Source: Candidatus Latescibacterota bacterium
GTDB lineage: Bacteria; Latescibacterota; UBA2968; UBA8231
Reading direction: 5' to 3'
DNA: 64,000 bases
NCBI GenBank assembly: GCA_965204725.1
Contig: OZ242005.1
Span: 4,736,001-4,800,000, forward strand
The notes beneath the pieces are model-generated. The model was not told the DNA's origin, did no database searches, and saw only the letters and a program-made list of their open reading frames with translations. The position numbers were made by a program, and so were the translations under genes. Numbering within the stretch: position 1 is the stretch's first letter; each line of letters starts with the position of its first letter. This document shows positions 10,060 to 22,188 of the stretch, one piece after another.

Positions 10060-10380
10060 ATGTATTCGATTGGCTTGGCCATGCGGCTGCGCCCCAATGC
10101 GTACGCCGAGTACAAACAGGCTCACGACGACCTGTGGCCCGAAATCGCCGAGAGCATGACCGACAACGAGGTCAGCATGGCCATCTACCGCTTGGGCGAA
10201 CATCTCGTCATCCACGCGGTCGCCCCCACGGAGGCAGACTGGCTCAAGAGCCGCCAAGTTCCCATCCTAGAAAAATGGTACGATTACATGGCTCAGTTGC
10301 TGGAGACCGACGACGAGGGGCAGATCCTCTTTGAGGAGTTACCCGAAGCCTTTGCCTTCGGGATGTTCGAGCAAGCGTAA
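10060..10380 (+). CDS. rhaM: L-rhamnose mutarotase family protein
   Basis: MRLRP..EYKQAHDDLWPEI...KWYDYMA pattern; AAGGAG RBS. Confidence 0.75.
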   Translation: MYSIGLAMRLRPNAYAEYKQAHDDLWPEIAESMTDNEVSMAIYRLGEHLVIHAVAPTEADWLKSRQVPILEKWYDYMAQLLETDDEGQILFEELPEAFAFGMFEQA

Positions 10381-10383
10381 ACG

Positions 10384-11187
10384 CTAGTTGGCTTCCACCG
10401 GGTTTTGCAGTCGGCCGATCGAGTCTATTTCTACGATTACCTCATCGCCGGCTGCGAGCCACACGGGCGGTTTGCGCGCAAAACCCACGCCCTGCGGGGT
10501 GCCGGTGAGGATGACCGTGCCCGGCAGCAGGGTCGTATCTTGGCTGAGGAATTCGATCAGTTCGGCAACCGTGAAGATCATGTCGCCGGTGGTGTGGTCC
10601 TGCATGGTCGCACCATTGAGGATCGTGCGGATTCCGAGGGCCTGCGGGTCGGAGATTTCGTCGGCGGTGACCAGCACCGGCCCCAAAGGGCAGAAGGTGT
10701 CAAAGCCCTTGCCGCGGATCCATTGGCCGCCGCCGGCATGGAGCTGCCACTTGCGGGCCGAGACATCGTTGGCGCACGTATATCCGAGCACGTAGCTGAG
10801 GGCGTCGGCCCGCGCCACGTTGCGAGCGGCTTGGCCGATCACCACCGCGAGTTCGCACTCGTAGTCAACTTCCGGGCCGCGGCGGCAGCAGGCGGGCAGC
10901 CGGATTGCGTCGCCCGGGCCGCAGACCGCGCTCGTGGGCTTGGCAAAGACGACCGGCTGCTCGGGCGGCGCGAGGCCGGATTCGGCCGCGTGTTCTCGGT
11001 AGTTTAGCCCAATGCAGAAAATGTTGGTCGGGGCGAGCGGGGCGAGCCGCCTTTTGACGGCGACCTGTTCGCCAGTCGGCACGAGTTCCGCAAAGAGATC
11101 GCCAGCGAGCACAGAGGCTTGGCCCTCCTCGGCTTCAAGGCCCCAACGGACGGCGTCGTCAACGTCTATAAAGCGAATGATGCGCAT
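10384..11187 (-). CDS. Fumarylacetoacetate hydrolase family protein
   Basis: IFCIGLNYREH, VDYECELAVVIG, NDVSAR, GKGFDTFCPLGP, ILTGTPQGVG; start follows AAGGAG. Confidence 0.92.
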   Translation of the reverse strand: MRIIRFIDVDDAVRWGLEAEEGQASVLAGDLFAELVPTGEQVAVKRRLAPLAPTNIFCIGLNYREHAAESGLAPPEQPVVFAKPTSAVCGPGDAIRLPACCRRGPEVDYECELAVVIGQAARNVARADALSYVLGYTCANDVSARKWQLHAGGGQWIRGKGFDTFCPLGPVLVTADEISDPQALGIRTILNGATMQDHTTGDMIFTVAELIEFLSQDTTLLPGTVILTGTPQGVGFARKPPVWLAAGDEVIVEIDSIGRLQNPVEAN

Positions 11188-11220
11188 GTCTTTCTCCTTT
11201 GTTTTCCAGCACTTGGACAA

Positions 11221-11322: not shown

Positions 11323-12735
11323 GTGCCCCCAAACGTCAGCGAAGAACACGTCCGCAAAATAGTCGAAGAAGTGGTGCAGCGAGTCGTCAGCGGCCAGGAC
11401 GGCCGCGAGGGTGGGGACACCGGCGTCTTCGCGACGATCGACTCGGCAGTCCAAGGCGCGACCCGCGCCCAGCAGCAGTTGGTTGCCTTGTCGCTAGAGC
11501 AACGCAAAAAGATCGTCGAGGCCCTCCGGCATACAGCCCACGCCCACGCCGAGGAGTTTTCGCGACGCGCCCTAGCCGAGACGGGAATGGGGCGGCTCGA
11601 AGACAAAATCGTCAAGCACCAAGTCGCGGCCGACACAACGCCCGGCGTCGAGGACCTAGAGGCGGCTTCGTGGACCGGCGACCACGGGCTGACCGTAGTC
11701 GAAATGGCACCCTACGGGGTCATCGGCGCCGTCACCCCATCGACGCATCCCGTGCCGACGATGGTCAACAATGCCATTTGCATTGTCGCCGCGGGCAATT
11801 CGGTCGTCTTCAACGTCCATCCGGCGGGCAAAGAGGTCTCCATGTTTGCGGTGGGCTTGATCAATCAAGCCATCGTCGCGGCTGGAGGCCCGGCCAACTT
11901 GGTGACCGCGGTCCAAACGCCCACCCTTGAGACAGCCAACGAATTGTTCAACCACCCGGGGGTCCGCCTCCTGCTGGTCACCGGCGGCCCGGGGGTGGCC
12001 AAGGCCGCGCTGGGCAGCCCAAAAAAGGCCATCATCGCCGGCCCGGGCAACCCGCCCGTGGTCGTCGATGAAACGGCCGATTTGGCCAAGGCCGCACGCG
12101 ACATCATCGACGGGGGAGGCTTCGACAACAACATTCTCTGCATCGGCGAGAAGCAGGTCTTTGCCGTCGCTGCAATTGCCGACGAGCTCAAGCGGCTGAT
12201 GGTCCAGTACAATGCCTACGAGCTCGATGCGCGGCAGGTCGAGGCCCTCGCGCAGGCGGCCTTTGTCCAAGGGCCAGACGGGCAGCTCGCCGCCAACCGC
12301 GAGTTGGTGGGGCGCGACGCGGCCGTGCTGGCCGACCGCATCGGCCTCCGGCTCGATTCGTCGCTGCGCCTACTCATTGGCGAGACCGACGCCAATCACG
12401 TTTTCGTGCGCGAGGAGCAGATGATGCCCTTTCTGCCGATCGTGCGGGTCCCCAACATCGATCAAGCCATCCGCGAGGCCGTCATCTCCGAGCACGGCTA
12501 CGGGCACACGGCCGTGATCCATTCGCGCAACATCGAAAACATGCACAACATGGCCCGCGCCGTAGATACCACTATTTTCGTCAAGAATGGGCCTTCCTAC
12601 GCCGGGGTTGGCTTGGGCGGCGAGGGCTTTGGGACGTACTCCATCGCCGGGCCGACGGGCGAGGGCCTGACTTCGCCGCGCACCTTTACCCGCCAGCGCC
12701 GCTGCGCCCTCGTAGATTACTTCCGCATTACCTGA
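11323..12735 (+). CDS. CoA-acylating aldehyde dehydrogenase (EutE/PduP-like) with N-terminal encapsulation peptide
   Basis: PYGVIGAVTPSTHP, VTGGPGV, AGPGNPP, FDNNILCIGEK, TGEGLTS; amphipathic N-terminal helix SEEHVRKIVEEVVQRV. Confidence 0.93.
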   Translation: MPPNVSEEHVRKIVEEVVQRVVSGQDGREGGDTGVFATIDSAVQGATRAQQQLVALSLEQRKKIVEALRHTAHAHAEEFSRRALAETGMGRLEDKIVKHQVAADTTPGVEDLEAASWTGDHGLTVVEMAPYGVIGAVTPSTHPVPTMVNNAICIVAAGNSVVFNVHPAGKEVSMFAVGLINQAIVAAGGPANLVTAVQTPTLETANELFNHPGVRLLLVTGGPGVAKAALGSPKKAIIAGPGNPPVVVDETADLAKAARDIIDGGGFDNNILCIGEKQVFAVAAIADELKRLMVQYNAYELDARQVEALAQAAFVQGPDGQLAANRELVGRDAAVLADRIGLRLDSSLRLLIGETDANHVFVREEQMMPFLPIVRVPNIDQAIREAVISEHGYGHTAVIHSRNIENMHNMARAVDTTIFVKNGPSYAGVGLGGEGFGTYSIAGPTGEGLTSPRTFTRQRRCALVDYFRIT

Positions 12736-13049
12736 TGCTCTTGGGCCAAGTCAAAGGGCACTTGGTTTCCACGGCCAAGGTCCCCAGCCTCAACGGCAAG
12801 AAGCTCTTAGTCGTCGAAATTGCGTCGGTGCGCGAGCACGGTCTGGTGCTGACGGGGCGGGATATGGTCTGCATCGACGCGGTACAAGCGGGCGAGGGCG
12901 AGTTGGTAATTTTAGTGCAGGGCAGCTCGTCGCGGGTCGCCCCGGACTTGGGTGATGTGCCAACCGACGCGGTCATCGTCGGCATCGTCGATTCGCTACA
13001 GGCCATGGGCCAGGACTTCGACTGTCGGGACCTGAGTCGCGAAGGGTAA
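12735..13049 (+). CDS. BMC pentamer (EutN/CcmL family, BMC-P)
   Basis: GQVKGHLVSTAK...DAVQAGEGELVILVQGSSSR...DAVIVGIVD. Confidence 0.95.
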   Translation: MLLGQVKGHLVSTAKVPSLNGKKLLVVEIASVREHGLVLTGRDMVCIDAVQAGEGELVILVQGSSSRVAPDLGDVPTDAVIVGIVDSLQAMGQDFDCRDLSREG

Positions 13050-13052
13050 GCG

Positions 13053-13733
13053 ATGGACATTGCACCAGCGGCCGGATTGGACCGCAAGCAGATTGAGGCG
13101 TTGGTGCGCCGGGCGGTGTACGATCGCCTGCCCGACGCTCAGCTAGCGCAGGCACCTCCAGCCCCGAGGCTGGTCGTCAACATGTCCGCCCGCCACGTCC
13201 ACCTCAATCAAAAAGCCCTAAACGCGCTCTTCGGCGCGGGTGCCGAGTTGACCGTCCAGAAGGCCCTGTACCAAGAGGGTGCTTTTGCCGCCGAGCAGAC
13301 GGTATCGGTTTTCGGCCCGCGCAAGCAGGTGATTCCCAACGTCCGCATCCTCGGCCCCTTGCGCGATTACAACCAAGTGGAACTGGCTTTTACGGATGCT
13401 CGCTTTTTGGGCATTGACGCGCCAGTGCGGCTCAGCGGCCACATCGACGGGACGCCCGGCTGCTACTTGGTCGGGCCGGCCGGGGGGCTGACGCTCGAAC
13501 GCGGCGTGATTCGGGCCGCCCGCCACGTCCATCTAAACCCGGCCGAGGCCGCGTACTACGAGGTCGGCCCGGGGGACTTGCTGCGGCTGGTCGTAGAAAG
13601 CGAGCAGGGCGGAGTGCTCGAAGGGTTGATCTGCCGAGTCAGCGACCACGAGCACTTGGAGGTCCACATCGACACGGACGAGGGCAATGCGATTGATTTG
13701 ATGCACGCCCGCAAGGTATATTTGGAGCGTTGA
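13053..13733 (+). CDS. pduL: PduL-type phosphotransacylase with N-terminal encapsulation peptide
   Basis: SARHVHL, VRILGPLR, ARHVHL, HIDTDEGNA; N-terminal helix DRKQIEALVRRAVYDRL. Confidence 0.93.
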   Translation: MDIAPAAGLDRKQIEALVRRAVYDRLPDAQLAQAPPAPRLVVNMSARHVHLNQKALNALFGAGAELTVQKALYQEGAFAAEQTVSVFGPRKQVIPNVRILGPLRDYNQVELAFTDARFLGIDAPVRLSGHIDGTPGCYLVGPAGGLTLERGVIRAARHVHLNPAEAAYYEVGPGDLLRLVVESEQGGVLEGLICRVSDHEHLEVHIDTDEGNAIDLMHARKVYLER

Positions 13734-13770
13734 ACGCAAAAATCCGCACAATTACTTCAGGAGGTAAGGG

Positions 13771-14334
13771 ATGTCGGATGCAATAGGCATGGTAGAAACC
13801 GTGGGGCTGGTCGGGGTCGTCGAGGCCGGCGACGCCATGGCCAAGGCCGCCAGCGTCCAGCTTTTGGGCTGGGATAGAGTCGGCTCTGGTTTGGTGACAG
13901 TGTTTTGCGCAGGCGATGTGGCCGCCGTCAAGTCGGCCGTAGATGCCGGTTCAACCGCTGCGGCCAAGGTCGGGGAGGTGCATTCAGTACACGTGATTCC
14001 CCGTCCCCACAGCGAGTTGACGGCCGTCGTGCCCGAGCGCGGCGACAGCAGCGACGGCGATGGCCCTATCCGCGCCTTGGGCCTCATTGAGACGAAGGGC
14101 ACCATCGGCGTGGTCGAAGCAGCCGACGCCATGAGCAAGGCCGCCGATGTGGAGATCGTCAAGCTCCAAGACATCGGCGGCGGGTACATCACCGTCATCG
14201 TCAGCGGCGACGTCGGCTCGGTGCAGGCGTCGGTCAGCGCCGGTGCTGAATCGGCCGAGCGCGTGGGCGAGCTCGTATCGCAGCACGTGATTCCTCGCCC
14301 CCACGACGATCTCGTCGCGCTATACTTGGAATAG
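13771..14334 (+). CDS. BMC shell protein with two tandem BMC domains
   Basis: Two repeats of A(I/L)G(M/L)(V/I)ET...DAMxKAA...GDV...HVIPRPH. Confidence 0.93.
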
Positions 14335-14345
14335 AGGAGAGAACA

Positions 14346-14609
14346 ATGAAAGCATTGGGTATGGTCGAGACCCGCGGTTTGGTTTGCGTCGTCGAAGCCC
14401 TCGACGCCATGTTGAAGACCGCCGACGTCAGCTATGCGGGCCAGAAGCGCGTGGGCAGCGGCCTAATCACCGTACTGGTCGAAGGCGACGTGGCGGCCGT
14501 CAAAGCGGCCGTGGATGCGGGAGCGCAAGCCGCCCAGCGCATCGGCGAGTTGCGCAGCGTCCACGTGATTCCCCGCCCGACTGAAGGACTGACCGATCAC
14601 CTCGGTTAG
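14346..14609 (+). CDS. BMC-H hexameric shell protein
   Basis: ALGMVETRG...DAMLKTA...[10 protein letters not shown]...HVIPRP. Confidence 0.95.
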
Positions 14610-14625
14610 CTAGGGGATCGAGGCT

Positions 14626-15042
14626 TTGCACATCGACGTTCCGGTCGTCACCGGCGACTTACTCGGGCGCGAACACAAGGGCGAGCGGGTACTCAGCGTA
14701 TCCCCCAGCGCCATCCTGACGCCAACGGCTTGGGATTACATCCGCCAGCACCGGTTGCAGGTGCAGCGCGGCGAGCCGGTCGCGGACGCGGGTCGGTGCG
14801 AGCAGCCCGACCGCCCCTGCGGCTGCGAGCACGAGGAGTTTGGTTCGGGGTTCGTCGAGCCGGAACGTTGCGGTGATTGCGCGGTCCACCAGCGCAAGAA
14901 GGCGGGCGATCCCGAGGCGAGTTGCGCTGGCTGCAATCGCTACAAGACGCTTTTGCAACAAATCGACAAGGGCCAAGCCACCGCCCCAGAAGCCTTAGTC
15001 GAGCAGATCACCGAGCTAGTCATTCACCGGCTGGCAGACTAA
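14626..15042 (+). CDS. Cys-rich BMC accessory protein with C-terminal encapsulation-peptide-like helix
   Basis: Seven Cys (C-x6-CxC, CxxC, CxxC); N-terminal AILTPTAWDYIR module; C-terminal PEALVEQITELVIHRL. Confidence 0.7.
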   Translation: MHIDVPVVTGDLLGREHKGERVLSVSPSAILTPTAWDYIRQHRLQVQRGEPVADAGRCEQPDRPCGCEHEEFGSGFVEPERCGDCAVHQRKKAGDPEASCAGCNRYKTLLQQIDKGQATAPEALVEQITELVIHRLAD

Positions 15043-15045
15043 GCT

Positions 15046-15630
15046 ATGGCGGACGCCCCGGCAGTCGGCATGATCGAGGTGGAGGGCGTGGCCGCGGCCA
15101 TTATGGGCGCAGATGCGGCCTGCAAGGCGGCGGACGTGAAGCTCGCCGGTTGGGCGTCAATCGGCGGTTACACCACGGCCTTTTTCACCGGATCAATTAG
15201 CGATGTGGCCGCCGCGCTGCACAGCGGTGAAGAAGCCGCCCGAGCAATAATAGAACACGTGGTAGCCGTGCCCCTCCACCAACCCGCCGCTCCCTGCCAC
15301 CATTTTGTCGATTTTCCGGCCGAAGCCCAAGGCGACTTCCCGGCTGGGGCCTTGGGGTTGGTCGAAACGCGCGGCTACGGGGTCCACATCCACATCAACG
15401 ATCAGATGGTCAAGACAGCGGCCGTCGAGGTAATCAACGTGCTGACGGTCCACGACCGCGTGGTGTGTTCGCTGATATTGGGAGACATCGGGGCTGTCAC
15501 CGAAGCCATCGCCGTCGCGCAAAAGCTGCTCGCCGGCTGCGAGCACTTGCTGGGCACGGCCCTGATCCCGCAGCCGCGGCCAGAGGTCTTAGCCGTTTAT
15601 GCCGCGCCGATGGGAGCGGGCGGTGGCTAG
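15046..15630 (+). CDS. BMC shell protein with two divergent tandem BMC domains
   Basis: AVGMIEVEG...DAACKAA and ALGLVETRG...DQMVKTA...GDIGAV...LIPQP. Confidence 0.88.
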   Translation: MADAPAVGMIEVEGVAAAIMGADAACKAADVKLAGWASIGGYTTAFFTGSISDVAAALHSGEEAARAIIEHVVAVPLHQPAAPCHHFVDFPAEAQGDFPAGALGLVETRGYGVHIHINDQMVKTAAVEVINVLTVHDRVVCSLILGDIGAVTEAIAVAQKLLAGCEHLLGTALIPQPRPEVLAVYAAPMGAGGG

Positions 15631-16771
15631 CGGGGCAATCGGCGTGCTGGAGACGCGCGGCATGGCGTCGCTCATGGCTTCCACCGACGCCATGCTCAAG
15701 GCCGCGGACGTCCAACTCTGCGGTCGGCACGGCATTGGTTCGGGTTGGCTCACCGCCGTAATCGCCGGTCGAGTGGCGGATGTAGAGGCGGCCCTTGGCG
15801 TCGGCGAGGTCGAGGCAAACCGCACGGGCGAGCTGATCGGTGCCCAAGTGGTGCCGCGGCCGGAGGCAGGCGTCATGGACGCCATGCCCCACGCAACGGG
15901 CCTCGGCGCCGAACAGGTCCAGCCGCGGGCGATTGGCTTATTGGAAACGCAGGGCCTGACGCCGCTAGTGGCTGGTGCCGACGCCATGCTCAAGGCCGCC
16001 CAAGTGGAGCTGGGAGGTTGGGCCTTCATCGGCGGTGCTCTGTGCCACGCGCCGGTCTTTGGCGATGTGGCGGCCGTGCAAGCGGCACTAGCAGCCGGCC
16101 GCCAAGCAGCCGAGCGGATTGGCTCGGTGTACGCGACCCTCGTTTTACCCCAGCCCAGCGCGGGGCTAGGTCCTCTGGTGCCGACCGCGCCAGTGACCGA
16201 GCCGTGCTCCACCGGTGCCTTGGGCCTCATAGAGACCATTGGGTACGCCGTGGTCGTGGGCAGTGCCGACGCCATGCTCAAAGCCGCGGATGTCCAAATC
16301 GAGTGCTTGAGCATCGGCAGCGGTGGGCGGATTGCCGCGCTGGCCACCGGCCAGCTCGATGACGTGCAGGCCGCCGTGCGCGCCGGTGCCGAGGCCGCCA
16401 CAGCCTTGGGGCAGCTCGATGCCTCGGCCGTAGTCTCTGGGCCTGATCCCATGCTAGTCGCCCGCTTTGCCGCCGCGGCCGAAGGGCTTGAGCCGGGAGC
16501 GCGGCAGGCCATGGGGCTGATTGAGACGCGCAGCACCGTGGCCTTGGTGCGGGCTGTAGATCGGATGCTCAAGGCCGCGGCCATCGAATACGAGGGGGCC
16601 TATAAAGTGGGATACTACTTGACGGCCGCCGTCGTCCGCGGCGATGTCGGTGCCGTGCAAGTCGCCATAGAGGCCGGCCGGCAGGAGGCCGTCGCCCACG
16701 GAGAATTGGTCTCGGCCTACGCCATTCCGCAGCTCTACAGCGGTCTCGAAGGCCGCCTGCCGCACGTTTAG
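15623..16771 (+). CDS. BMC shell protein with four tandem BMC domains
   Basis: Four repeats beginning AIGVLETRG, AIGLLETQG, ALGLIETIG and AMGLIETRS, each with D(A/R)MLKAA. GTG start 15623 follows GGAG and overlaps the upstream TAG. Confidence 0.9.
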   Translation: MASGAIGVLETRGMASLMASTDAMLKAADVQLCGRHGIGSGWLTAVIAGRVADVEAALGVGEVEANRTGELIGAQVVPRPEAGVMDAMPHATGLGAEQVQPRAIGLLETQGLTPLVAGADAMLKAAQVELGGWAFIGGALCHAPVFGDVAAVQAALAAGRQAAERIGSVYATLVLPQPSAGLGPLVPTAPVTEPCSTGALGLIETIGYAVVVGSADAMLKAADVQIECLSIGSGGRIAALATGQLDDVQAAVRAGAEAATALGQLDASAVVSGPDPMLVARFAAAAEGLEPGARQAMGLIETRSTVALVRAVDRMLKAAAIEYEGAYKVGYYLTAAVVRGDVGAVQVAIEAGRQEAVAHGELVSAYAIPQLYSGLEGRLPHV

Positions 16772-16784
16772 CGAGGACGCGAAA

Positions 16785-17948
16785 ATGATTCGGATTGACG
16801 ACGCAGTGATTACCGCTCAGACCTTGGAGACCCGCCTAGCGGGCGAACGGCAGGTCGAGATCGGCCCCGGGGCTAAGCTGACGCCCTCGGCGCAGGATTT
16901 TTTGCGCGTCCAAGGCGTTGAGCTCGTCCGCCGCGAAGCCGGCCACCAAGCCCCGCCAACGCCAGCACCAGCGGTTCCTCGCGCGGCCGGCCGCAAGGCA
17001 TTTGCTGGCATCTTCTGTCCCAATGTCGTCCTTTTCGACAGCCAGAACGCGATCAACCACGCCGAGATGGAGCGCTACATCAACTGGTTGATTGAGGTTG
17101 GGATCCACGGGCTGTATCCCAACGGCAGCACGGGCGAATTCGCACGCCTGTCGCGCGAGGAACGCCAAGACGTGGTGCGCTTGGTCTGCGAGGTCAACAA
17201 GGGGCGTGTCCCGGTGCTGGCCGGCGCCAGCGAGGCCAACGTGCGCGACGTGCTCGAGATGGCCGAATACTACGCCGCGCTCGGCGTGGATGCCATTGCG
17301 GTGATGCCCCCCTATTACTACGAAATTTCCACCGAAAGCCTCTTCGAGTACTTCGCCGAAATTGCCGAAGAATCGCCGCTGGACATCCTGCTGTACAACA
17401 TCCCGCAATTTACCCAAGAGCTGTCGCTAAACTTGATGGAGCGGCTCTTGCCCTACGAGCGGATCTTCGGCACCAAGGACTCCAGCCGCGACCTGCCGCG
17501 GCTGCTCAACACCATGCACCGCCTGCGCCAACAACGATCCGACTACGTGGTAATGACCGGTTGCGAGGAGATCGTATTTCCCTCGGTGATGATGGGGGCC
17601 AGCGGGGGCACCATCGCCACTTCGGGCATCGTCCCGGAAGTCATCGTCGAGCTTTATGAAAAGGCTGTAAGCGGCGACATTGAGCGGGCCCGCGAGCTGC
17701 AATACCGCATCCTCGACCTAATTAACCTCATGCTCTTAGGCGTCAACTTCCCAGAGGGCTTCAAGACCGGGGTGGCGGCCCGCGGCTTCGACGTAGGCCC
17801 CGCACGCACATCGAGCAGCGCGGCCGAGCAGGAGTACCTGCTCAAACTGGAGGCCCAAATCAACTGTGTCCTCGCGGATATGGGCTATCCCGTCCACGGC
17901 CCCCGCGCCTGCCCGACCACCAACCTGCCGTCGATCGTCGGGCGCTAG
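16785..17948 (+). CDS. DapA/NAL-family class I aldolase/lyase with N- and C-terminal extensions
   Basis: NGSTGEF, LYNIPQ, GTKDSS (Schiff-base Lys); extra N-terminal module AKLTPSAQDFLR followed by a Pro-rich linker. Confidence 0.88.
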   Translation: MIRIDDAVITAQTLETRLAGERQVEIGPGAKLTPSAQDFLRVQGVELVRREAGHQAPPTPAPAVPRAAGRKAFAGIFCPNVVLFDSQNAINHAEMERYINWLIEVGIHGLYPNGSTGEFARLSREERQDVVRLVCEVNKGRVPVLAGASEANVRDVLEMAEYYAALGVDAIAVMPPYYYEISTESLFEYFAEIAEESPLDILLYNIPQFTQELSLNLMERLLPYERIFGTKDSSRDLPRLLNTMHRLRQQRSDYVVMTGCEEIVFPSVMMGASGGTIATSGIVPEVIVELYEKAVSGDIERARELQYRILDLINLMLLGVNFPEGFKTGVAARGFDVGPARTSSSAAEQEYLLKLEAQINCVLADMGYPVHGPRACPTTNLPSIVGR

Positions 17949-19022
17949 ATGGCCCTCACCGGCGCGTGTGTGTTGGTCGTCGGGGCCGGTATCATCGGCC
18001 GCTCAACAGCCTATTTCCTCGCGCAACAAAACGCGCAGGTCACCCTGCTCGACGAGGGAATCGCCGCTGGCTCGCCCACGAGCCGGGCCTCTTTGGGCGT
18101 CCTTACCCACTGCAACGGCGGCGACAATCCCTACGCCCAGCTTTTGCGCGACGGCCATGCCCTACACGCCCGGCTGGCCCGCGACCTCAACGAAGACCTA
18201 GGAGCAGACGTGGGCTGGCGTCCCCTCGGCGGCATCGAGCTTTTTGCCGACCCATCCCAGCTAGAAGCGGTGTGGCACTTCAACCGCGCCCGCGGCTGTC
18301 GGGTCGAGCGGCTCGACGCCCGGGCCTTGTGCGCTGCGGAGCCGGCGTTGGATGGCGACGAGGGCCTGTATTTTGCCGACGATCACCGGGTGGACCCCCT
18401 CAAACTGGGCGCAGTGCTTTGGGCGGCTGCCGCCCAGCGGGATGCGTCCGCCGCTTGGGGCGAGCGCGTCTGGCGCGTGGCCCAAGCGGGCGAAACCGTT
18501 GAGGTCGCGACCACTCGCGGAACGCATCGCGCCGATTTTGCGGTCTTGGCCGCTGGGGCGTGGACCAGCGGCTTGGCCGCCCAACTCGGAGCCCGAGTCG
18601 CGCTGCGCCCAGTGCGGGGCCAACAAGCGCGTTTTACTGGCGCCCCGCTGCGCCACCTCGTGCGGGTCAACGGACGCCACCTCATTCCAGACGGCGGCGA
18701 AACGGTCGTGGGCTCGACGGTGGAGGAGGTCGGCTTTCGGTTGGAAACGACCCGCGCGGCCGCAGGGCAGTTCGCCGCAGAGGTACGCTCTGCGCTGGGG
18801 CGGCCCTTGCCCTTGTCGCGCCAGCAAGCCGGCCTGCGGCCCAAGCCCCGGGGCGGGCGGCCGCTCATCGGCCCGCTGACGGATGCGCCGCGGGTTTTTG
18901 TCGCGGCTGGGCACTACAAAAACGGCGTCTTGCTAGGCCCGATTACGGGCCAAATCGTCGCTCGCTGGATCGCCGCGGGAACCCCGGGGCGCGACATGCG
19001 CCGCTTCGCACCCGAGCGTTGA
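17949..19022 (+). CDS. FAD-dependent D-amino-acid/glycine oxidase family protein (ThiO-like)
   Basis: VVGAGIIG, RPVRGQ, AGLRP, GHYKNGVLLGP. Confidence 0.88.
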   Translation: MALTGACVLVVGAGIIGRSTAYFLAQQNAQVTLLDEGIAAGSPTSRASLGVLTHCNGGDNPYAQLLRDGHALHARLARDLNEDLGADVGWRPLGGIELFADPSQLEAVWHFNRARGCRVERLDARALCAAEPALDGDEGLYFADDHRVDPLKLGAVLWAAAAQRDASAAWGERVWRVAQAGETVEVATTRGTHRADFAVLAAGAWTSGLAAQLGARVALRPVRGQQARFTGAPLRHLVRVNGRHLIPDGGETVVGSTVEEVGFRLETTRAAAGQFAAEVRSALGRPLPLSRQQAGLRPKPRGGRPLIGPLTDAPRVFVAAGHYKNGVLLGPITGQIVARWIAAGTPGRDMRRFAPER

Positions 19023-19055
19023 ATTTATCACCACCTAACACCATTGAGGTTAAAC

Positions 19056-19997
19056 ATGCCATTGCAAAAAGAAGACCTACTCGCCGCGCTAAACTCGGTC
19101 ACCTCCATCCCGGTGGTCCCTTTTCGCGGCGGGCGCATCGACTACGACGCCCATGCCAAGAACATCAACTACCTAATGGAGAACAACCACTTAGACGGCG
19201 GCCGGCCCCGGGTGATTGGCATCGCCGGCACCAGCTTGGTCCACCACATTAGCGCGGCCGAGCAAGTGCGGCTATTGGGATTTACCGGGGAACTGATGGG
19301 CGGGCGCGGGGTGCTCATGGCCGGGATTGCCCCCAATCCGGTTGGGGATGCCGAGCGGTTGATCGAGCGGGAGGCCGCGCTCGAATATCCCCCGGATGTC
19401 TATCTCGTCATGCCGCTTACTGGCGTGGCCAATCCAGCGGGCATTTTTGCGTACTACGCGGATTTTGCCGAGCGGTTGGGACGTTCGTGCGGGGCCAAGT
19501 TGCTCTACTACCTGCGCAACCCAGCCGAGTGCGAGATCGCCGTGCGGCTGATGAACGAGTCCGAGCACTTCGTAGGGCTGAAGATCGGCACCACGGTCGA
19601 GGACGTCGAGCCGATTGTCGCGGGGGTGGAAGAGGGAGCAGCGCTGGTGATATGGGGCGTGGGGGACCGCTCAACCGGGCCGGCCGAGCGCGGCACCAAA
19701 GGCCACACATCGGGAATTAACGTAGCTTTCGCCCGCGCCTCCGACGAGATCAACAACGCCCAGCGCCGCGGCGATTTTGCGACCTCCCAGCAGATCGAAA
19801 ACCAACTCGCGGCCCTAGAGGAGATTCGCTTCCGCAACGGCCGCATGTACAACTATTCAGCCGTAGTTGAGGCCATGCACTTGGGCGGATTCAGCGATGT
19901 AGATGGCGGCGAGGGCGGCCCGTTCAACCCGCGAGTGCCGGCGGAAGTAGCCGAGGAAGTGGCCGCGGCCATAGCCGACATTATACCCTACCACTAA
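19056..19997 (+). CDS. Second, divergent DapA-family protein (aldolase/dehydratase/deaminase)
   Basis: SIPVVPF..GRIDYDAHAKNINYL, AGTS, LYY, FVGLKIG; start follows GAGGT. Confidence 0.72.
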   Translation: MPLQKEDLLAALNSVTSIPVVPFRGGRIDYDAHAKNINYLMENNHLDGGRPRVIGIAGTSLVHHISAAEQVRLLGFTGELMGGRGVLMAGIAPNPVGDAERLIEREAALEYPPDVYLVMPLTGVANPAGIFAYYADFAERLGRSCGAKLLYYLRNPAECEIAVRLMNESEHFVGLKIGTTVEDVEPIVAGVEEGAALVIWGVGDRSTGPAERGTKGHTSGINVAFARASDEINNAQRRGDFATSQQIENQLAALEEIRFRNGRMYNYSAVVEAMHLGGFSDVDGGEGGPFNPRVPAEVAEEVAAAIADIIPYH

Positions 19998-20293
19998 ACC
20001 CGGCGCAGCCGCTCTAGATAGGCCGCCCATTCAACCGGGAGCCGGTGCTGCTTTTGGCTATTGCAGTGCTTGCAGCAAGGGACCACGTTGGACTTGGTGG
20101 TTTGGCCGCCGCGGATGAGCGGCACCACGTGGTCCATGGTCAGCTCCTCGGGCGCAAACGACCGCTCGCAGTAGTGGCACTGGCCGGCGGCCCGTTCGCG
20201 CTTCCACCACTGAGAGCGGCGCAGCATCTTGGCCTTGGTTTTCTCTCGGGCGACGTGCTCGGCGTCGGCTGGGACGAAGTAGCTATTTTCCAT
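19994..20293 (-). CDS. Small HNH endonuclease
   Basis: CHYC...LTMDHVVPLIRGG...NVVPCCKHCNSQK. Confidence 0.92.
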   Translation of the reverse strand: MENSYFVPADAEHVAREKTKAKMLRRSQWWKRERAAGQCHYCERSFAPEELTMDHVVPLIRGGQTTKSNVVPCCKHCNSQKQHRLPVEWAAYLERLRRV

Positions 20294-20321
20294 GGGAGAG
20301 CAAGATGCTTAGCCAGCCGCT
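20228..20321. repeat. Left copy of the direct repeat bounding the TIR cassette
   Basis: 20228-20293 matches 22467-22532 with two mismatches; 20308-20321 matches 22533-22546; the left copy has a 14-bp insertion. Confidence 0.9.
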
Positions 20322-20734
20322 TACTCTGCTTGGTATCCCAAGTCCCACACGCGCAGAAGATCGCGACACCCCTGTTCAAAAGTTTGCGTAAAATCGATTA
20401 ACTGAATGGAAAACAGCGTCCAAGAAAGTTGCCCATAATTACAGGGTTGGTGCAAAAGGGGAATCATTTTGTTTTCAAAGTGATTCAGATAAAAAGAAAA
20501 CATCAGCTCTTTCTTTACCCAAGCGGATCCCACTGCATTTGGCGACAAGACAAGCACAAACCAATCGCAGCGGAGAATCGCTTCACCAATTTCATCATGC
20601 CATTGCTGTCCCCCAAGGACATTGGATCGACTGTACCAGACGCGAAGCCCATGCCGCCGCATCATGTCGACCAACTCTTCTACAAACGGCCGATCTCGGT
20701 CAGAATGCGAAAGAAAAATTTCCGTTGGCAACAT
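20321..20734 (-). CDS. TIR domain protein (TIR_2-like)
   Basis: IFLSHSDRDRPFVEEL...VLVLSPNAVGSAWVKKEL, with the catalytic-position Glu. Confidence 0.9.
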   Translation of the reverse strand: MLPTEIFLSHSDRDRPFVEELVDMMRRHGLRVWYSRSNVLGGQQWHDEIGEAILRCDWFVLVLSPNAVGSAWVKKELMFSFYLNHFENKMIPLLHQPCNYGQLSWTLFSIQLIDFTQTFEQGCRDLLRVWDLGYQAE

Positions 20735-20737
20735 AAT

Positions 20738-21184
20738 TCAAGAGATTGATGCAGATGTAGGCGGGGAGCTTGCTATATCGTTTTCCAGAATTGCCTGTGC
20801 GATTTGTTTAATCCCTTCTTCTTCCTCGTCGTATTCACCCATATCGATTATATGTAAGAGCCGAAGAATCCATGGAATATCTTCTTTGGGTATCTCTTCT
20901 GAATCGCCAACAAGGACGGGGATCAGGCGTTTGCGATAGTTTTGTTCGCCAAGAGCATACTCAATTTCCCGGCGTACCCAACTTGAACGCAGAGCGTCGG
21001 CGGTCAGGAGGACCACCATGGCTTCTGACTCTTTCAATGCTTGCGCTACCTTCTCCGTCAAAGTATCCTCAGACAGGATTTCACGGGTGGCATCCCACAC
21101 ATCAAGGCCAGCTTTTTCTAAGCCTACCGCGACCTTCTTGACAAAAGGCTCATCCTTATACGCATGGCTAATAAAGACTTTCAT
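20738..21184 (-). CDS. TIR domain protein (TIR_2-like)
   Basis: KVFISHAYKD...GLDVWD...SSWVRREIEYAL...LIPVL. Confidence 0.9.
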   Translation of the reverse strand: MKVFISHAYKDEPFVKKVAVGLEKAGLDVWDATREILSEDTLTEKVAQALKESEAMVVLLTADALRSSWVRREIEYALGEQNYRKRLIPVLVGDSEEIPKEDIPWILRLLHIIDMGEYDEEEEGIKQIAQAILENDIASSPPTSASIS

Positions 21185-21207
21185 AATCCAAACTATCCTT
21201 TCGTCCG

Positions 21208-21705
21208 CTAAAGATCCAGTAAAGTAAAAATACTAGCCAATAAGAAATACAACAAACCAAAGCATACCGGCACCCATTTCTCTACACCCGTAAGCGGAGA
21301 GTATAGCTTTCTATCTTTCCCTTTGCCGAGGGCTATCCATTCAGTATCGTAAGGAGCAACAGGTAGCATTTGCTCAAGTGCGAGAATGACCTTGTACTTA
21401 CCGCTGTTTAGCTGCCGATACGAACACACGACGCGCCACCACACGTAACAGAGGAGCATCAAGGCAACAAAAGGTACAAAGATGAGCAACGCTGGTTTCA
21501 GTATGTCCTCTTTGAGCAGCACGATAAAGGCGATAGTCAGCGTCGTATGCACACCGACGAAAAACGAGTTTGCTAGCATCCTTCGCGCACTGATCCTATC
21601 AGCCATTTCGACGTATAGCTTGTACTGGTCGAAAAGGTGATTCTCAAATTCGGCACCATAAGTATCTTTACTTTGGCGTAGCAAGTTTAGGCTGTTTTTG
21701 CTCAC
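21208..21705 (-). CDS. Small ~3-TM membrane protein, putative oligomeric pore effector
   Basis: FDQYKLYVEMADRISARR..ANSFF, two TM helices, SYRQLNSGKY..I..LE, and a C-terminal TM. From memory it resembles small TIR-associated octameric membrane proteins. Confidence 0.65.
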   Translation of the reverse strand: MSKNSLNLLRQSKDTYGAEFENHLFDQYKLYVEMADRISARRMLANSFFVGVHTTLTIAFIVLLKEDILKPALLIFVPFVALMLLCYVWWRVVCSYRQLNSGKYKVILALEQMLPVAPYDTEWIALGKGKDRKLYSPLTGVEKWVPVCFGLLYFLLASIFTLLDL

Positions 21706-21771
21706 TGTTTTTCTTCCTCGTTGATTTATGATGTATCCAATGGGTTATCGTAAAACATTTCTACTTTTTAG

Positions 21772-22188
21772 CTACAAAGACCATCTGCGAACAGCAGCTA
21801 CGATACTACTTGTTTGCCAACCAACCATTTCCTTGGCAACGTTTTGCACTTCAATCGGCATACGTTCTTGACCCCAAGGGGCAACTCCGATAATTGGCTT
21901 TCCATAGGATATGGCGATGTCGATTTCTTCCTGAATCCACCTTCTGTGATTGACATACATGCCAGAAACCACAAGAAAGCAGTTAATAGGGGCGATTTGT
22001 CGGTCAAGTGCTTGACGTAGTTCCCCATCTGTCTTTGTTTCAAGCGGATCGTGCTCTGGAACTGAGTAATTGCGCCAATAGAAGTAAGGTGCTTCGGAGA
22101 GAAACATCTCAAGGCGGTAGTACTCGGAGTTTTCGACTCTATGCCATACATGGCTTAAAAAAAGATCATACGTTTTAAGTTTTGGCAT
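21772..22188 (-). CDS. Thoeris ThsB-like TIR protein (DUF1863/MTH538)
   Basis: YDLFLSH.W...NYSVPEHDP...SGMYVNHRRWIQEEIDIA...KPIIGV.PWGQER. Confidence 0.88.
   Translation of the reverse strand: MPKLKTYDLFLSHVWHRVENSEYYRLEMFLSEAPYFYWRNYSVPEHDPLETKTDGELRQALDRQIAPINCFLVVSGMYVNHRRWIQEEIDIAISYGKPIIGVAPWGQERMPIEVQNVAKEMVGWQTSSIVAAVRRWSL

What the first reader, a model, noticed from the sequence alone, without database searches (positions are those of the whole stretch)
15046..16771. Four-domain BMC shell protein coupled to a two-domain one: possible 4+2 hetero-pseudohexamer
Seen: one uninterrupted ORF with four divergent BMC domains, whose GTG overlaps the stop of a two-domain BMC gene (GTGGCTAG). 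Established: shell tiles have six BMC domains (6x1 for BMC-H, 3x2 for BMC-T), so four domains cannot close a single tile as a homo-oligomer. Inference: a 1:1 heterodimer gives a fully asymmetric tile with six different pore loops (SIGG, TVHD, GIGSG, FIGG, SIGSG, KVGY). The alternative is three chains forming two linked or stacked tiles.
Basis: partly seen in the sequence, partly recalled or inferred. Interest (0 to 1): 0.86.

Follow-up and report, generated by a model that had tools for sequence, protein, structure and literature searches.

The report
Four-plus-two domain microcompartment shell tile
Two overlapping genes encode a two-domain and a four-domain shell protein that most likely join one-to-one into a single hexagonal microcompartment tile with six different sides, a building block I did not find described in print.

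Summary
Window 15623-16771 is one open frame of 382 aa with four PF00936 (BMC) domains. Its GTG overlaps the TAG of a 194-aa two-domain BMC gene by 8 nt.

It is not an assembly artefact. Contigs of four runs from four studies show no indels. 116 of the 120 best database hits are 369-404 aa.

The pair is a fixed module:
- 61 of 61 complete four-domain genes have the two-domain gene directly upstream, and 60 of those junctions run from an 8-nt overlap to a 12-nt gap.
- In 168 genomes of the phylum, 83 have both genes, 84 neither and 0 the four-domain gene alone. One has the two-domain gene alone, cut by a contig end.
- No true six-domain fusion turned up.

A complex model puts the partner between domains 4 and 1 and so closes the ring (ipSAE 0.80, best control 0.01). 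It had no paralog control and could be memory of solved BMC rings.

Domain homology suggests an H-T-H-T ring derived from repeated T-H units, related to an undescribed three-domain family.

Verdict: a 1:1 asymmetric 4+2 tile is the best reading, about 0.68. It rests on computation only.

The parts
15046..15630 (+). Two-domain BMC shell gene (T2b, 194 aa, 19.6 kDa), domains b1 and b2. It is the proposed partner that closes the ring.
   Evidence: Pfam finds PF00936 twice, E 1.8e-30. An ortholog lies directly upstream of the four-domain gene in 61 of 61 loci. It is present in 84 of 168 genomes of the phylum, and 83 of those also hold the four-domain gene.
15623..16771 (+). Four-domain BMC shell gene (Q4, 382 aa from GTG 15623, 38.2 kDa). 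An alternative ATG stands at 15599. Domains: D1 15635-15862, D2 15929-16156, D3 16217-16441, D4 16508-16732.
   Evidence: Pfam finds PF00936 four times, E 2e-73. 116 of the 120 best homologs are 369-404 aa. The model of the chain alone has pLDDT 91.2 and pTM 0.90.
15612..15630 (+). Coupling junction: GGGAG (15612-15616), GTG start (15623-15625) and TAG stop of the upstream gene (15628-15630), an 8-nt overlap.
   Evidence: Read from the sequence. The same 8-nt overlap occurs in 36 of 61 loci, a 1-4 nt overlap in 5, a gap of 1-12 nt in 19 and a gap of 175 nt in 1.
14626..15042 (+). 138-aa Cys-rich ORF with no Pfam family. Its first ~50 residues resemble the N-terminal extension of the aldolase downstream of Q4.
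   Evidence: BLASTP gives 36% identity over 50 aa, E 3e-7. No Pfam hit. A weak match to the C-terminus of TIGR02536, E 3e-4, lies far below its cut-off. A full-length tblastn match occurs in 48 of 68 related loci.
16785..17948 (+). DHDPS-family (class I pyruvate) aldolase with a ~70-aa N-terminal extension, directly downstream of Q4. It is the likely signature enzyme of the compartment.
   Evidence: PF00701 matches residues 73-359, E 1.3e-57. NCBIfam matches are all below their cut-offs. The N-terminus resembles the 138-aa ORF.
13771..14334 (+). Ordinary two-domain BMC-T gene (T2a, 187 aa).
   Evidence: PF00936 twice, E 3.7e-52. It is absent from genomes G056, G053 and G059, which still hold T2b and Q4.
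14346..14609 (+). Single-domain BMC-H gene (87 aa).
   Evidence: PF00936 once, E 4.8e-27.
11323..13733 (+). Metabolosome core: CoA-acylating-type aldehyde dehydrogenase (11323-12735), BMC-P (12735-13049) and PduL phosphotransacylase (13053-13733).
   Evidence: PF00171, PF03319 and PF06130. NF011927 matches at E 2.5e-196, above its cut-off.

Best explanation
The two genes make one shell tile.

The 194-aa chain (domains b1, b2) and the 382-aa chain (D1-D4) are made in equal amounts from overlapping, coupled reading frames. They associate 1:1 into a flat pseudohexamer of about 58 kDa, with ring order D1-D2-D3-D4-b1-b2. The four-domain chain forms a 240-degree arc. The two-domain chain fills the 120-degree gap, with b1 against D4 and b2 against D1.

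All six positions keep the edge lysine, so the tile can tessellate with BMC-H and BMC-T neighbours. It has no rotational symmetry. Its centre is lined by six different, individually conserved loops:
- four small ones (Gly/Ser/Ala tips in b1, D1, D2, D3);
- two bulky ones (His-Asp/Asn-Arg in b2, Tyr-Tyr in D4).

Each of its six edges and each lumen-facing patch is unique.

The ring is a relic of repeated T-H units (b1b2+D1 and D2D3+D4), giving an H-T-H-T pattern. Two H-like domains fused to either side of the second T unit.

Shown here: the domain counts, the conservation of the pair, the junction and the homology pattern. Inferred: the physical 1:1 assembly (model only), the role of the pore, and the role in the shell of a probably deoxy-sugar/lactaldehyde-type metabolosome.
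For: 1. Arithmetic. Four PF00936 domains in one chain and two in the neighbour. Known tiles hold six domains (Sutter 2021, passages read).

2. Fixed pair.
- 61 of 61 complete four-domain genes (60 loci plus the window) have a two-domain gene directly upstream on the same strand.
- 41 of 61 junctions overlap, 36 of them by 8 nt. 19 have a 1-12 nt gap and 1 a 175-nt gap.
- Phylum scan of 168 genomes: Q4 (E <= 1e-88) in 83 and T2b (E <= 1e-67) in 84. Both occur in 83. T2b occurs alone in 1 (G096), where it is cut by the end of a 2050-nt contig. Q4 never occurs alone. Neither occurs in 84.

3. Each of the six domain positions is a separate clade (support 0.97-1.0) across 61 loci, so the six-domain set is older than these lineages.

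4. The pair is never fused and never seen further split.
- No protein longer than 404 aa stands among the 120 best Q4 hits.
- None of the 5 proteins over 340 aa that I Pfam-scanned, of the 7 such among the best 150 representatives for T2b, has more than four domains.
- The search for longer proteins gave 2 hits. One is an ordinary Q4. The other reads as a frame-shifted chimaera.

5. Complex model.
- ipSAE 0.81/0.78/0.80, with the best of 3 controls at 0.01.
- The tool states that 58 of 80 solved complexes and 2 of 110 mismatched pairs reached the mark. It adds that these counts hold only roughly here, because my own alignments were used.
- Partner pLDDT is at least 87, and the runs agree in at least 88% of their contacts.
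- Contacts are confined to Q4 residues 6-90 (D1) with T2b 109-142 (b2), and Q4 303-359 (D4) with T2b 7-87 (b1). That is ring closure.

6. Q4 alone folds with pLDDT 91.2 and pTM 0.90. Neighbouring domains superpose on the synthetic tandem BMC-H of 6NER (TM on target 0.86-0.90, rmsd 2.5-3.7 A over 178-189 columns).

7. The lysine of the D-x-x-x-K motif is invariant in all six domains: K26, K124, K220 and K317 in 37 Q4 orthologs, and K27 and K123 in 37 T2b orthologs.

8. Genomes G056, G053 and G059 (99-100% complete) hold only 8 BMC domains: T2b, Q4 and two remote single-domain genes. The other BMC-T is therefore not the needed partner.

9. Homology of the junctions.
- The T2b profile aligns with Q4 D2-D3 (probability 99.9, E 2.8e-31).
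- D1 and D4 both score best with BMC-H.
- The inter-chain joints D4-b1 and b2-D1 are therefore homologous to the intra-chain joints D1-D2 and D3-D4.
Against: There is no experiment.

The complex score may reflect memory of the many solved BMC hexamers and trimers. The tool itself warns that close relatives of a true partner also pass.

I could run no control with the other two-domain protein, with two BMC-H chains, with T2b x3 or with Q4 x3. The cap is one job, and Q4 x3 exceeds the size limit.

Adjacent, overlapping shell genes are usual in BMC operons, so coupling alone is not specific. Co-occurrence would also be perfect if both proteins were separate tiles of one shell type.

The T2b profile is about as similar to the ordinary BMC-T (E about 1e-35 to 1e-38) as to Q4 D2-D3. 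T2b could therefore still trimerise like an ordinary BMC-T.

Covariation across the interface could not be assessed. Only 2 of the 25 listed contact pairs vary on both sides.
Confidence: 0.68

Rival explanations
1. The four-domain chain is completed by whatever single BMC domains are at hand (4+1+1 with BMC-H, or 4+2 with any BMC-T). The two-domain neighbour forms its own ordinary homotrimer. The two genes are then just two tiles of one shell.
For: BMC-H genes occur in every genome checked that has Q4. T2b has the normal two-domain build of a BMC-T and resembles the ordinary BMC-T at E about 1e-35. Mixed hexamers of BMC-H paralogs are reported for carboxysomes (recalled; only search listings seen). 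No paralog control was run for the complex model.
Against: The T2b family was found only with Q4 in the 168 genomes scanned: 83 of 84, the exception being a contig end. In the library of 1.84 billion representatives it has only 3 clusters at E <= 1e-30. An independent trimer would be expected to occur without Q4 somewhere. The b2 loop (invariant L133, V135, V139, V140 and C141; T134, H136 and R138 nearly invariant) is unlike any ordinary BMC-T domain in the locus. The tight 1:1 coupling is conserved in 60 of 61 junctions.
Confidence: 0.13
2. Three four-domain chains form twelve domains, that is two tiles. These would either be stacked face to face (D1D2 x3 on D3D4 x3, like double-layer BMC-T) or lie side by side, tied by a shared chain. 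The two-domain protein is a separate tile.
For: Twelve is a multiple of six. Double-stacked trimers exist among permuted BMC-T (Sutter 2021, passage read). The termini of BMC domains lie on one face, so a short linker could bridge two stacked discs (recalled, not tested).
Against: The single-chain model places the four domains in one rigid arrangement (pTM 0.90). Its neighbouring domains sit as ring neighbours do in 6NER. In the complex model both ends of that arc touch the partner. All four edge lysines are invariant, which is not required for a disc that sticks out of the shell layer. The domains are not circularly permuted: each matches PF00936 positions 1-74/75 in order. The homology pattern pairs D2 with D3, not D1D2 with D3D4. 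I could not fold Q4 x3, since 1146 residues exceed the limit.
Confidence: 0.08
3. The four-domain chain does not sit in the facet as a closed tile. It would act as an open arc, for instance a scaffold, an assembly nucleus or an edge piece.
For: Nothing here shows a closed tile experimentally. The two genes that flank the pair share a ~50-aa N-terminal domain of no known family, which hints at some special docking role.
Against: The free ends of the arc fall in a predicted interface whose columns are more conserved than the rest of the protein: mean column entropy 0.69 against 1.05 bits. This is weak, because these positions are conserved in any BMC domain. A dedicated two-domain partner of exactly the missing size is always encoded beside it.
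Confidence: 0.06
4. Artefact: a mis-assembled or frame-shifted run of separate BMC genes.
For: One relative (L061) has the frame broken into 3+1 domains. Two database entries (P0134, P0371) read as frame-shifted versions by eye.
Against: 60 loci and 83 genomes keep the open four-domain frame. Contigs of four runs from four studies show no indel. Each domain position is under separate conservation.
Confidence: 0.01

Closest known systems
BMC-T(s), standard tandem-domain shell trimers (such as PduT, CcmO and Haliangium BMC-T1; the names are recalled, and PDB hits 3pac, 3n79 and 6n06 appear)
   Same: Several canonical, non-permuted PF00936 domains lie in one chain and form a hexagonal pseudohexamer of six domains. 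The linkers are of similar length. T2b by itself has exactly this build.
   Different: A BMC-T has two domains per chain and closes as a homotrimer with three-fold symmetry and two kinds of loop. Here one chain has four domains and cannot close alone. The proposed tile has two different chains, no symmetry and six kinds of loop.
Synthetic BMC-H tandem fusion in a Haliangium shell (PDB 6NER)
   Same: It is the best sequence hit (E 1.9e-34) and the best fold hit (TM on target 0.86-0.90). It shows that covalently linked canonical BMC domains sit as ring neighbours and still build shells.
   Different: It is man-made, has two identical domains and forms a homotrimer.
Mixed hexamers of BMC-H paralogs (CcmK3/CcmK4 of beta-carboxysomes; recalled, with only search listings seen)
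   Same: A tile made of more than one gene product.
   Different: Those are single-domain chains mixing in variable ratios. Here the ratio and the order around the ring would be fixed by the covalent links.
Three-domain BMC proteins (about 290 aa, such as P0136, P0128, P0129, P0131 and P0133). I found no paper on them.
   Same: This is the closest natural relative of Q4 beyond its own family. P0136 aligns colinearly with D1-D2-D3 (36% identity, E 1.3e-37). It presumably also obeys the rule of six, as 3+3.
   Different: It has three domains, so a homodimer could close the ring with two-fold symmetry and needs no second gene. I did not examine its gene neighbourhood.
BMC-T(dp), double-stacked permuted trimers (CcmP and CsoS1D; Sutter 2021, passages read)
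   Same: A multi-domain BMC protein that yields twelve domains per trimer. It is the model for the stacked rival.
   Different: Those domains are circularly permuted, two per chain. Here all domains are in the canonical order.

Membership tests
BMC-domain shell protein (PF00936) | One or more PF00936 domains above Pfam's gathering score | tested here: met
   Q4 scores 242.8 bits with 4 stretches. T2b scores 105.2 bits with 2 stretches. The cut-off is 24.5 bits.
BMC-domain shell protein (PF00936) | Encoded with a BMC-P (PF03319) gene and metabolosome core enzymes | tested here: met
   BMC-P, aldehyde dehydrogenase and PduL lie 2-4 kb upstream on the same strand. Three further BMC-P genes lie elsewhere in the genome.
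BMC-domain shell protein (PF00936) | Conserved edge lysine used in tile-to-tile contacts (Lys-26 of PduA) | tested here: met
   K26, K124, K220 and K317 of Q4, and K27 and K123 of T2b, are invariant in 37 orthologs each. The role of PduA Lys-26 comes from the abstract of PMC4139245 as listed. The residue-by-residue equivalence is inferred from the shared D-x-x-x-K motif and was not superposed.
BMC-domain shell protein (PF00936) | Forms a closed cyclic tile of six domains in a shell | tested here: inconclusive
   Only a model exists: ipSAE 0.80 against a best control of 0.01, with contacts at both ends of the arc. There is no experiment.
BMC-T(s), standard tandem trimer | Exactly two PF00936 domains per chain | tested here: not met
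   Q4 has four, so I do not file Q4 as a BMC-T. T2b has two and meets this feature.
BMC-T(s), standard tandem trimer | Homotrimer with three-fold symmetry | not testable with these tools
BMC-T(dp)/BMC-T(sp), permuted trimers | Circularly permuted BMC domains | tested here: not met
   In the genome-wide scan all six domains match PF00936 from position 1 to position 71-75 of 75, in order. The strand-helix order of the model is the canonical one in each domain.
Three-domain BMC family (undescribed) | Three PF00936 domains in a chain of about 290 aa | tested here: not met
   Q4 has a fourth domain and a separate two-domain partner. It is related but is not a member.

The most novel reading that the evidence does not exclude
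Microcompartment tiles obey only the rule 'six domains per ring', and nature uses more partitions of six than the textbook 6x1 and 3x2. A three-domain family would close as 3+3, and this pair as 4+2. The 4+2 tile is the end point of that series: a fully asymmetric, single-copy-addressable hexagon. Its one-sided pore is bulky in b2 (His/Asp/Arg) and D4 (Tyr-Tyr) and small in the other four loops. Its unique lumen face serves as a dedicated conduit and docking site for the cargo genes that flank it, both of which carry the same ~50-aa N-terminal domain.
Probability: 0.25. Interest if true: 0.88.

Novelty: new variant of a known kind. Interest (0 to 1): 0.78.

Why it matters
Shell proteins of bacterial microcompartments are classed as hexamers (one domain), trimers (two domains, with permuted variants) and pentamers. 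The 2021 catalogue lists only these in the passages I read.

A conserved four-domain protein with an obligate two-domain partner would be a further building block, and the first natural tile without any symmetry. That matters in four ways.

- Permeability: a pore shaped by six different loops can be tuned for one asymmetric metabolite or cofactor.
- Assembly: six different edges could fix the tile's orientation in a facet.
- Cargo loading: there is one unique inner face per tile.
- Engineering: the tile would have exactly one addressable copy of each position.

It also shows that automated typing by 'one or two domains' can overlook or discard such genes. The family is not rare. It is present in 83 of 168 genomes of this phylum and has more than a hundred database clusters.

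Tried and rejected
- Six-domain fusions were sought three ways. The only candidate, P0371 (411 aa, one sequence), reads as a frame-shifted merge of T2b and the start of Q4 and was rejected.
- Relatives with weaker Q4 matches (E about 1e-47) were checked for three-domain genes. G073, G011, G035 and G018 hold only ordinary one- and two-domain genes read through stops.
- A metagenome scan with the three-domain alignment A4 was meant to show the neighbourhoods of three-domain genes. Its patterns were too general. By my own HMM, 78 of the 80 loci had at most two domains per frame, one had a cut three-domain frame (L084) and one was another 2+4 pair (L151). The neighbourhood of the three-domain family stays unexamined.
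- Covariation between the chains: only 2 of the 25 listed contact pairs vary on both sides. One lies at the 94th and one at the 33rd percentile of corrected mutual information. This is uninformative.
- Expression: no RNA holder was listed.
- The 138-aa ORF and the aldolase N-terminus found no Pfam family even at E 10.
- Literature: five searches, for phrases meaning three- or four-domain BMC proteins and for mixed, tandem or asymmetric tiles, found no paper that describes such proteins. I looked into:
  - Sutter 2021 (PMC8217296; passages);
  - Axen 2014 (PMC4207490; passages);
  - MCPdb (PMC8007038; passages);
  - Youssef 2015 (PMC4454575; passages);
  - the archaeal microcompartment preprint (passages).
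  None mentions more than two BMC domains per chain in the passages shown. Supplementary Data 2 of Sutter 2021 lists every locus and may well include this one under some type label. Subscription journals are not covered.
Full report
WHAT IS THERE.

The + strand of window 11323-19997 carries a microcompartment operon:
- aldehyde dehydrogenase (11323-12735)
- BMC-P (12735-13049)
- PduL (13053-13733)
- a two-domain BMC-T, here T2a (13771-14334)
- a BMC-H (14346-14609)
- a 138-aa ORF without a Pfam family (14626-15042)
- a second two-domain BMC gene, here T2b (15046-15630)
- the gene in question, here Q4 (15623-16771)
- a DHDPS-family aldolase with an N-terminal extension (16785-17948)
- a DAO-family flavoprotein (17949-19022)
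- a second, weaker DHDPS-like gene (19044-19997)

Pfam finds four PF00936 stretches in Q4 (E 2e-73) and two in T2b (E 1.8e-30). The genome (5.43 Mb, 2 contigs) has nine PF00936 matches in all, every one of them in this operon. It has four BMC-P genes, one here and a triplet about 2.2 Mb away.

THE JUNCTION.

GGGAG stands 6 nt upstream of the GTG. An in-frame ATG at 15599 would add 8 residues. In relatives the start I picked is a GTG in 52 and an ATG in 9 of 61 loci. In 36 of 61 it overlaps the upstream stop by the same 8 nt, so I take the GTG as the start.

IS IT REAL?

Contigs of four runs from four studies were laid on 14300-17000, and no insertion or deletion was seen:
- X1 and X3 cover the whole stretch with no difference. 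Either may be the window's own source.
- X4 covers 15248-17000 with no difference.
- X6 covers 14796-16287 with 36 substitutions and 16305-17000 with 16 substitutions, all without gaps.

Of the 120 best database hits to Q4, 116 are 369-404 aa long at 54-96% identity. The other 4 are 285-322 aa. The four-domain frame is therefore a conserved gene.

THE PAIR IS A FIXED MODULE.

A scan of one genome per species gave 77 loci. Nine of them (L069-L077, mostly labelled Bacillota) are ordinary one- or two-domain loci and were set aside.

I counted BMC domains in stop-to-stop frames of the other 68 loci, using an HMM built from the window's nine domains.
- 60 loci hold a complete four-domain frame.
- 7 are cut by contig ends (L058, L062-L067).
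- 1 (L061) has the frame broken into overlapping 3+1 pieces.

With the window that makes 61 complete genes. All 61 have a two-domain gene directly upstream on the same strand. The offsets of start against stop are -8 nt in 36, -4 in 2, -1 in 3, +1 to +12 in 19, and +175 in 1.

A profile search of all 168 genomes held for this phylum gave the following:
- Q4 (E <= 1e-88) in 83 genomes and T2b (E <= 1e-67) in 84.
- Both in 83, Q4 alone in 0, neither in 84.
- T2b alone in 1, G096. There T2b runs off the end of a 2050-nt contig.

The thresholds are mine. They were chosen at the wide gaps in the E-value lists. The genomes are kin, so these are not independent events.

NEVER FUSED, NEVER SEEN SPLIT FURTHER.

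- No hit longer than 404 aa is among the best 120 for Q4.
- T2b searched against 1.84 billion representatives gave 997 hits at E <= 1e-3 but only 3 at E <= 1e-30. Seven of the best 150 exceed 340 aa. I Pfam-scanned five of these: one is a four-domain protein and four have two domains plus tails.
- The search for longer proteins gave 2 hits. One is an ordinary Q4. The other (P0371) reads as a frame-shifted merge.

SIX DIFFERENT, INDIVIDUALLY CONSERVED DOMAINS.

Within the window the six domains are 19-44% identical to each other. In a tree of all domains from the 61 loci, each of the six positions is its own clade (support 0.97-1.0).

Each pore loop is conserved in its own way across 37 orthologs:
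- b1: S38 invariant, I39 nearly so, G40 and G41 invariant
- b2: L133, V135, V139, V140 and C141 invariant; T134, H136 and R138 nearly invariant
- D1: H36 ... G39, S40, G41, W42
- D2: G132, W133 ... G137, G138, A139, L140 ... H142
- D3: S233, G234, G235, R236
- D4: K328, V329, G330, Y331

I aligned these to the canonical loop of the locus's BMC-H. The tips are small (Gly/Ser/Ala) in b1, D1, D2 and D3. They are bulky or charged in b2 (His-Asp-Arg) and D4 (Tyr-Tyr). Which residues actually line the pore is inferred from the alignment, not from coordinates.

The lysine of the D-x-x-x-K motif is invariant in all six domains. In PduA that lysine (Lys-26) governs hexagonal tiling (abstract of PMC4139245 as listed). 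The equivalence is inferred.

STRUCTURE MODELS.

Q4 alone folds with mean pLDDT 91.2 and pTM 0.90. The relative placement of its four domains is therefore confident. Foldseek's best PDB matches are chains of 6NER, a synthetic tandem BMC-H fusion (TM on target 0.86-0.90, rmsd 2.5-3.7 A over 178-189 columns). No match in either PDB search covers more than two of the four domains.

- ipSAE was 0.81, 0.78 and 0.80, and the best of three controls was 0.01.
- The tool's mark was reached by 58 of 80 solved complexes and 2 of 110 mismatched pairs. The tool says these counts hold only roughly here, because my own alignments were used.
- Partner pLDDT is at least 87, and the runs agree in at least 88% of their contacts.
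- The confident contacts lie only in Q4 6-90 (D1) against T2b 109-142 and 189 (b2), and in Q4 303-359 (D4) against T2b 7-87 (b1).

The partner thus bridges the two ends of the arc, giving the ring order D1-D2-D3-D4-b1-b2. This supports binding but does not show it. BMC rings are well represented among solved structures. The tool warns that relatives of a true partner also pass.

WHO ELSE COULD FILL THE GAP?

Genomes G056, G053 and G059 (99-100% complete) hold only eight BMC domains: T2b, Q4 and two remote single-domain genes. T2a is therefore dispensable. T2b or BMC-H remain as candidates. 44 of the 61 loci have a second two-domain gene within the fetched flanks.

ORIGIN.

- The T2b profile aligns with Q4 D2-D3, linker included (187 columns, probability 99.9, E 2.8e-31).
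- In genome scans T2a aligns with D2-D3 (E about 1e-52). T2a plus the following BMC-H, read through the stop, aligns with D2-D3-D4 (E about 1e-80).
- Profile-profile scores between domain classes: b1 scores best with the first domain of T2a (106) and then D2 (101). b2 scores best with D3 (113). D1 scores best with BMC-H (147), as does D4 (154).
- D1 is followed by an MPH motif (P89 and H90 invariant, M88 nearly so). D4 ends in L-P-H, where L379 is invariant and H381 nearly so.

The operon therefore reads as three T-H units in a row: T2a-H, T2b-D1 and D2D3-D4. The last H-T-H is fused into one gene, and the ring reads H-T-H-T. The deep branches are short-domain signals of modest strength, so I hold this scenario at roughly even odds.

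A three-domain family also exists. The 52 best hits to P0136 are 287-345 aa. Sources name two of them as Candidatus Sumerlaeia and Candidatus Hydrogenedentota bacteria. P0136 aligns colinearly with D1-D2-D3 (36% identity, E 1.3e-37). After its own family, its next hits are Q4 proteins at 36-44% identity over 95-99% of its length.

CONTEXT.

Upstream of the operon lie two genes. One is like L-rhamnose mutarotase (E 1.4e-10, below its cut-off). The other, on the - strand, is like 2,4-didehydro-3-deoxy-L-rhamnonate hydrolase (E 1.9e-65, below its cut-off).

With a pyruvate-aldolase-type signature enzyme, a CoA-acylating-type aldehyde dehydrogenase and PduL, the compartment plausibly handles an aldehyde from a 2-keto-3-deoxy sugar acid, for example lactaldehyde from rhamnose or fucose. 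This is inference. Youssef 2015 proposed a fucose/rhamnose compartment for this phylum on other grounds (passages read).

The 138-aa ORF and the aldolase share a ~50-aa N-terminal domain (36% identity, E 3e-7). Among the 68 related loci, a tblastn search with the 138-aa protein gave these results:
- 48 have a full-length match, mostly just upstream of T2b.
- 16 match only residues 1 to 46-77, just downstream of Q4, at the start of the next gene.
- 1 has a partial match at a contig start.
- 3 have no match.

The pair is thus flanked by genes that carry this domain. Whether the domain docks on the tile is untested.

VERDICT.

The rivals are:
- promiscuous completion by BMC-H, with T2b a separate trimer (0.13)
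- Q4 trimers making two tiles (0.08)
- an open-arc role (0.06)
- artefact (0.01)

In five phrase searches and in passages of five papers I found no description of BMC proteins with three or four domains, or of a fixed two-chain tile. Supplements and subscription journals were out of reach.

I rate it a new variant of a known kind, of high interest to the field, awaiting one co-expression experiment.

Noticed in passing
proteins P0136, P0128, P0129, P0131, P0133 and the 52 best rows (not in the window): A conserved family of three-domain BMC proteins of about 290 aa. Pfam finds PF00936 three times in the four I scanned. Sources name two members as Candidatus Sumerlaeia and Candidatus Hydrogenedentota bacteria. 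The family is colinear with D1-D2-D3 of the four-domain protein. It would fit a 3+3 tile, and I found no paper on it. Two members (P0312, P0315) share the same longest-contig length, so they may lie on one contig.
   Followed up: partly
window 14626-15042 (+) and 16785-16940 (+): A 138-aa protein with seven cysteines (including two C-x-x-C and one C-x-C) and no Pfam family shares its first ~50 residues with the N-terminal extension of the aldolase. One or the other lies next to the 2+4 gene pair in 64 of 68 related loci. It could be a shell-docking or encapsulation domain.
   Followed up: partly
own genome G000:C1:2589366-2590161 (outside the window): A triplet of BMC-P genes lies about 2.2 Mb from the main locus. 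Sutter 2021 calls a BMC-P triplet a common feature of its FRAG locus types, found among others in Gemmatimonadetes and candidate phyla, and also lists one for its ACI type (passages).
   Followed up: no
window 10060-11220: A gene like L-rhamnose mutarotase (+ strand) and a gene like 2,4-didehydro-3-deoxy-L-rhamnonate hydrolase of the FAH family (- strand) lie just upstream of the operon. Both score below their NCBIfam cut-offs. They hint that the compartment serves a non-phosphorylative deoxy-sugar route.
   Followed up: partly
window 19994-22188 (- strand): Directly after the operon lies a run of small genes that looks like a defence island: an HNH endonuclease (99 aa), two TIR_2 proteins (137 and 148 aa), an 8xMP membrane protein (165 aa) and a ThsB-like TIR protein (138 aa).
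   Followed up: partly
locus L061:3225-4428: In one relative the four-domain frame is broken into overlapping 3-domain and 1-domain frames. This is either a sequencing error in that metagenome bin or a real frameshift. It was not examined base by base.
   Followed up: no
window 16439-16441 (codon for Gly273 of Q4): The window's protein has Gly273 in the V-S-x-P-D motif of D3, where at least 90% of 37 orthologs have Arg. By alignment to the P-R-P motif of the other domains this looks like the counterpart of PduA Arg-79. An Arg stands there only in D1 (window) and D3 (most orthologs), and Gln or other residues stand there in the other four domains. The six edges are therefore chemically unequal.
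   Followed up: no
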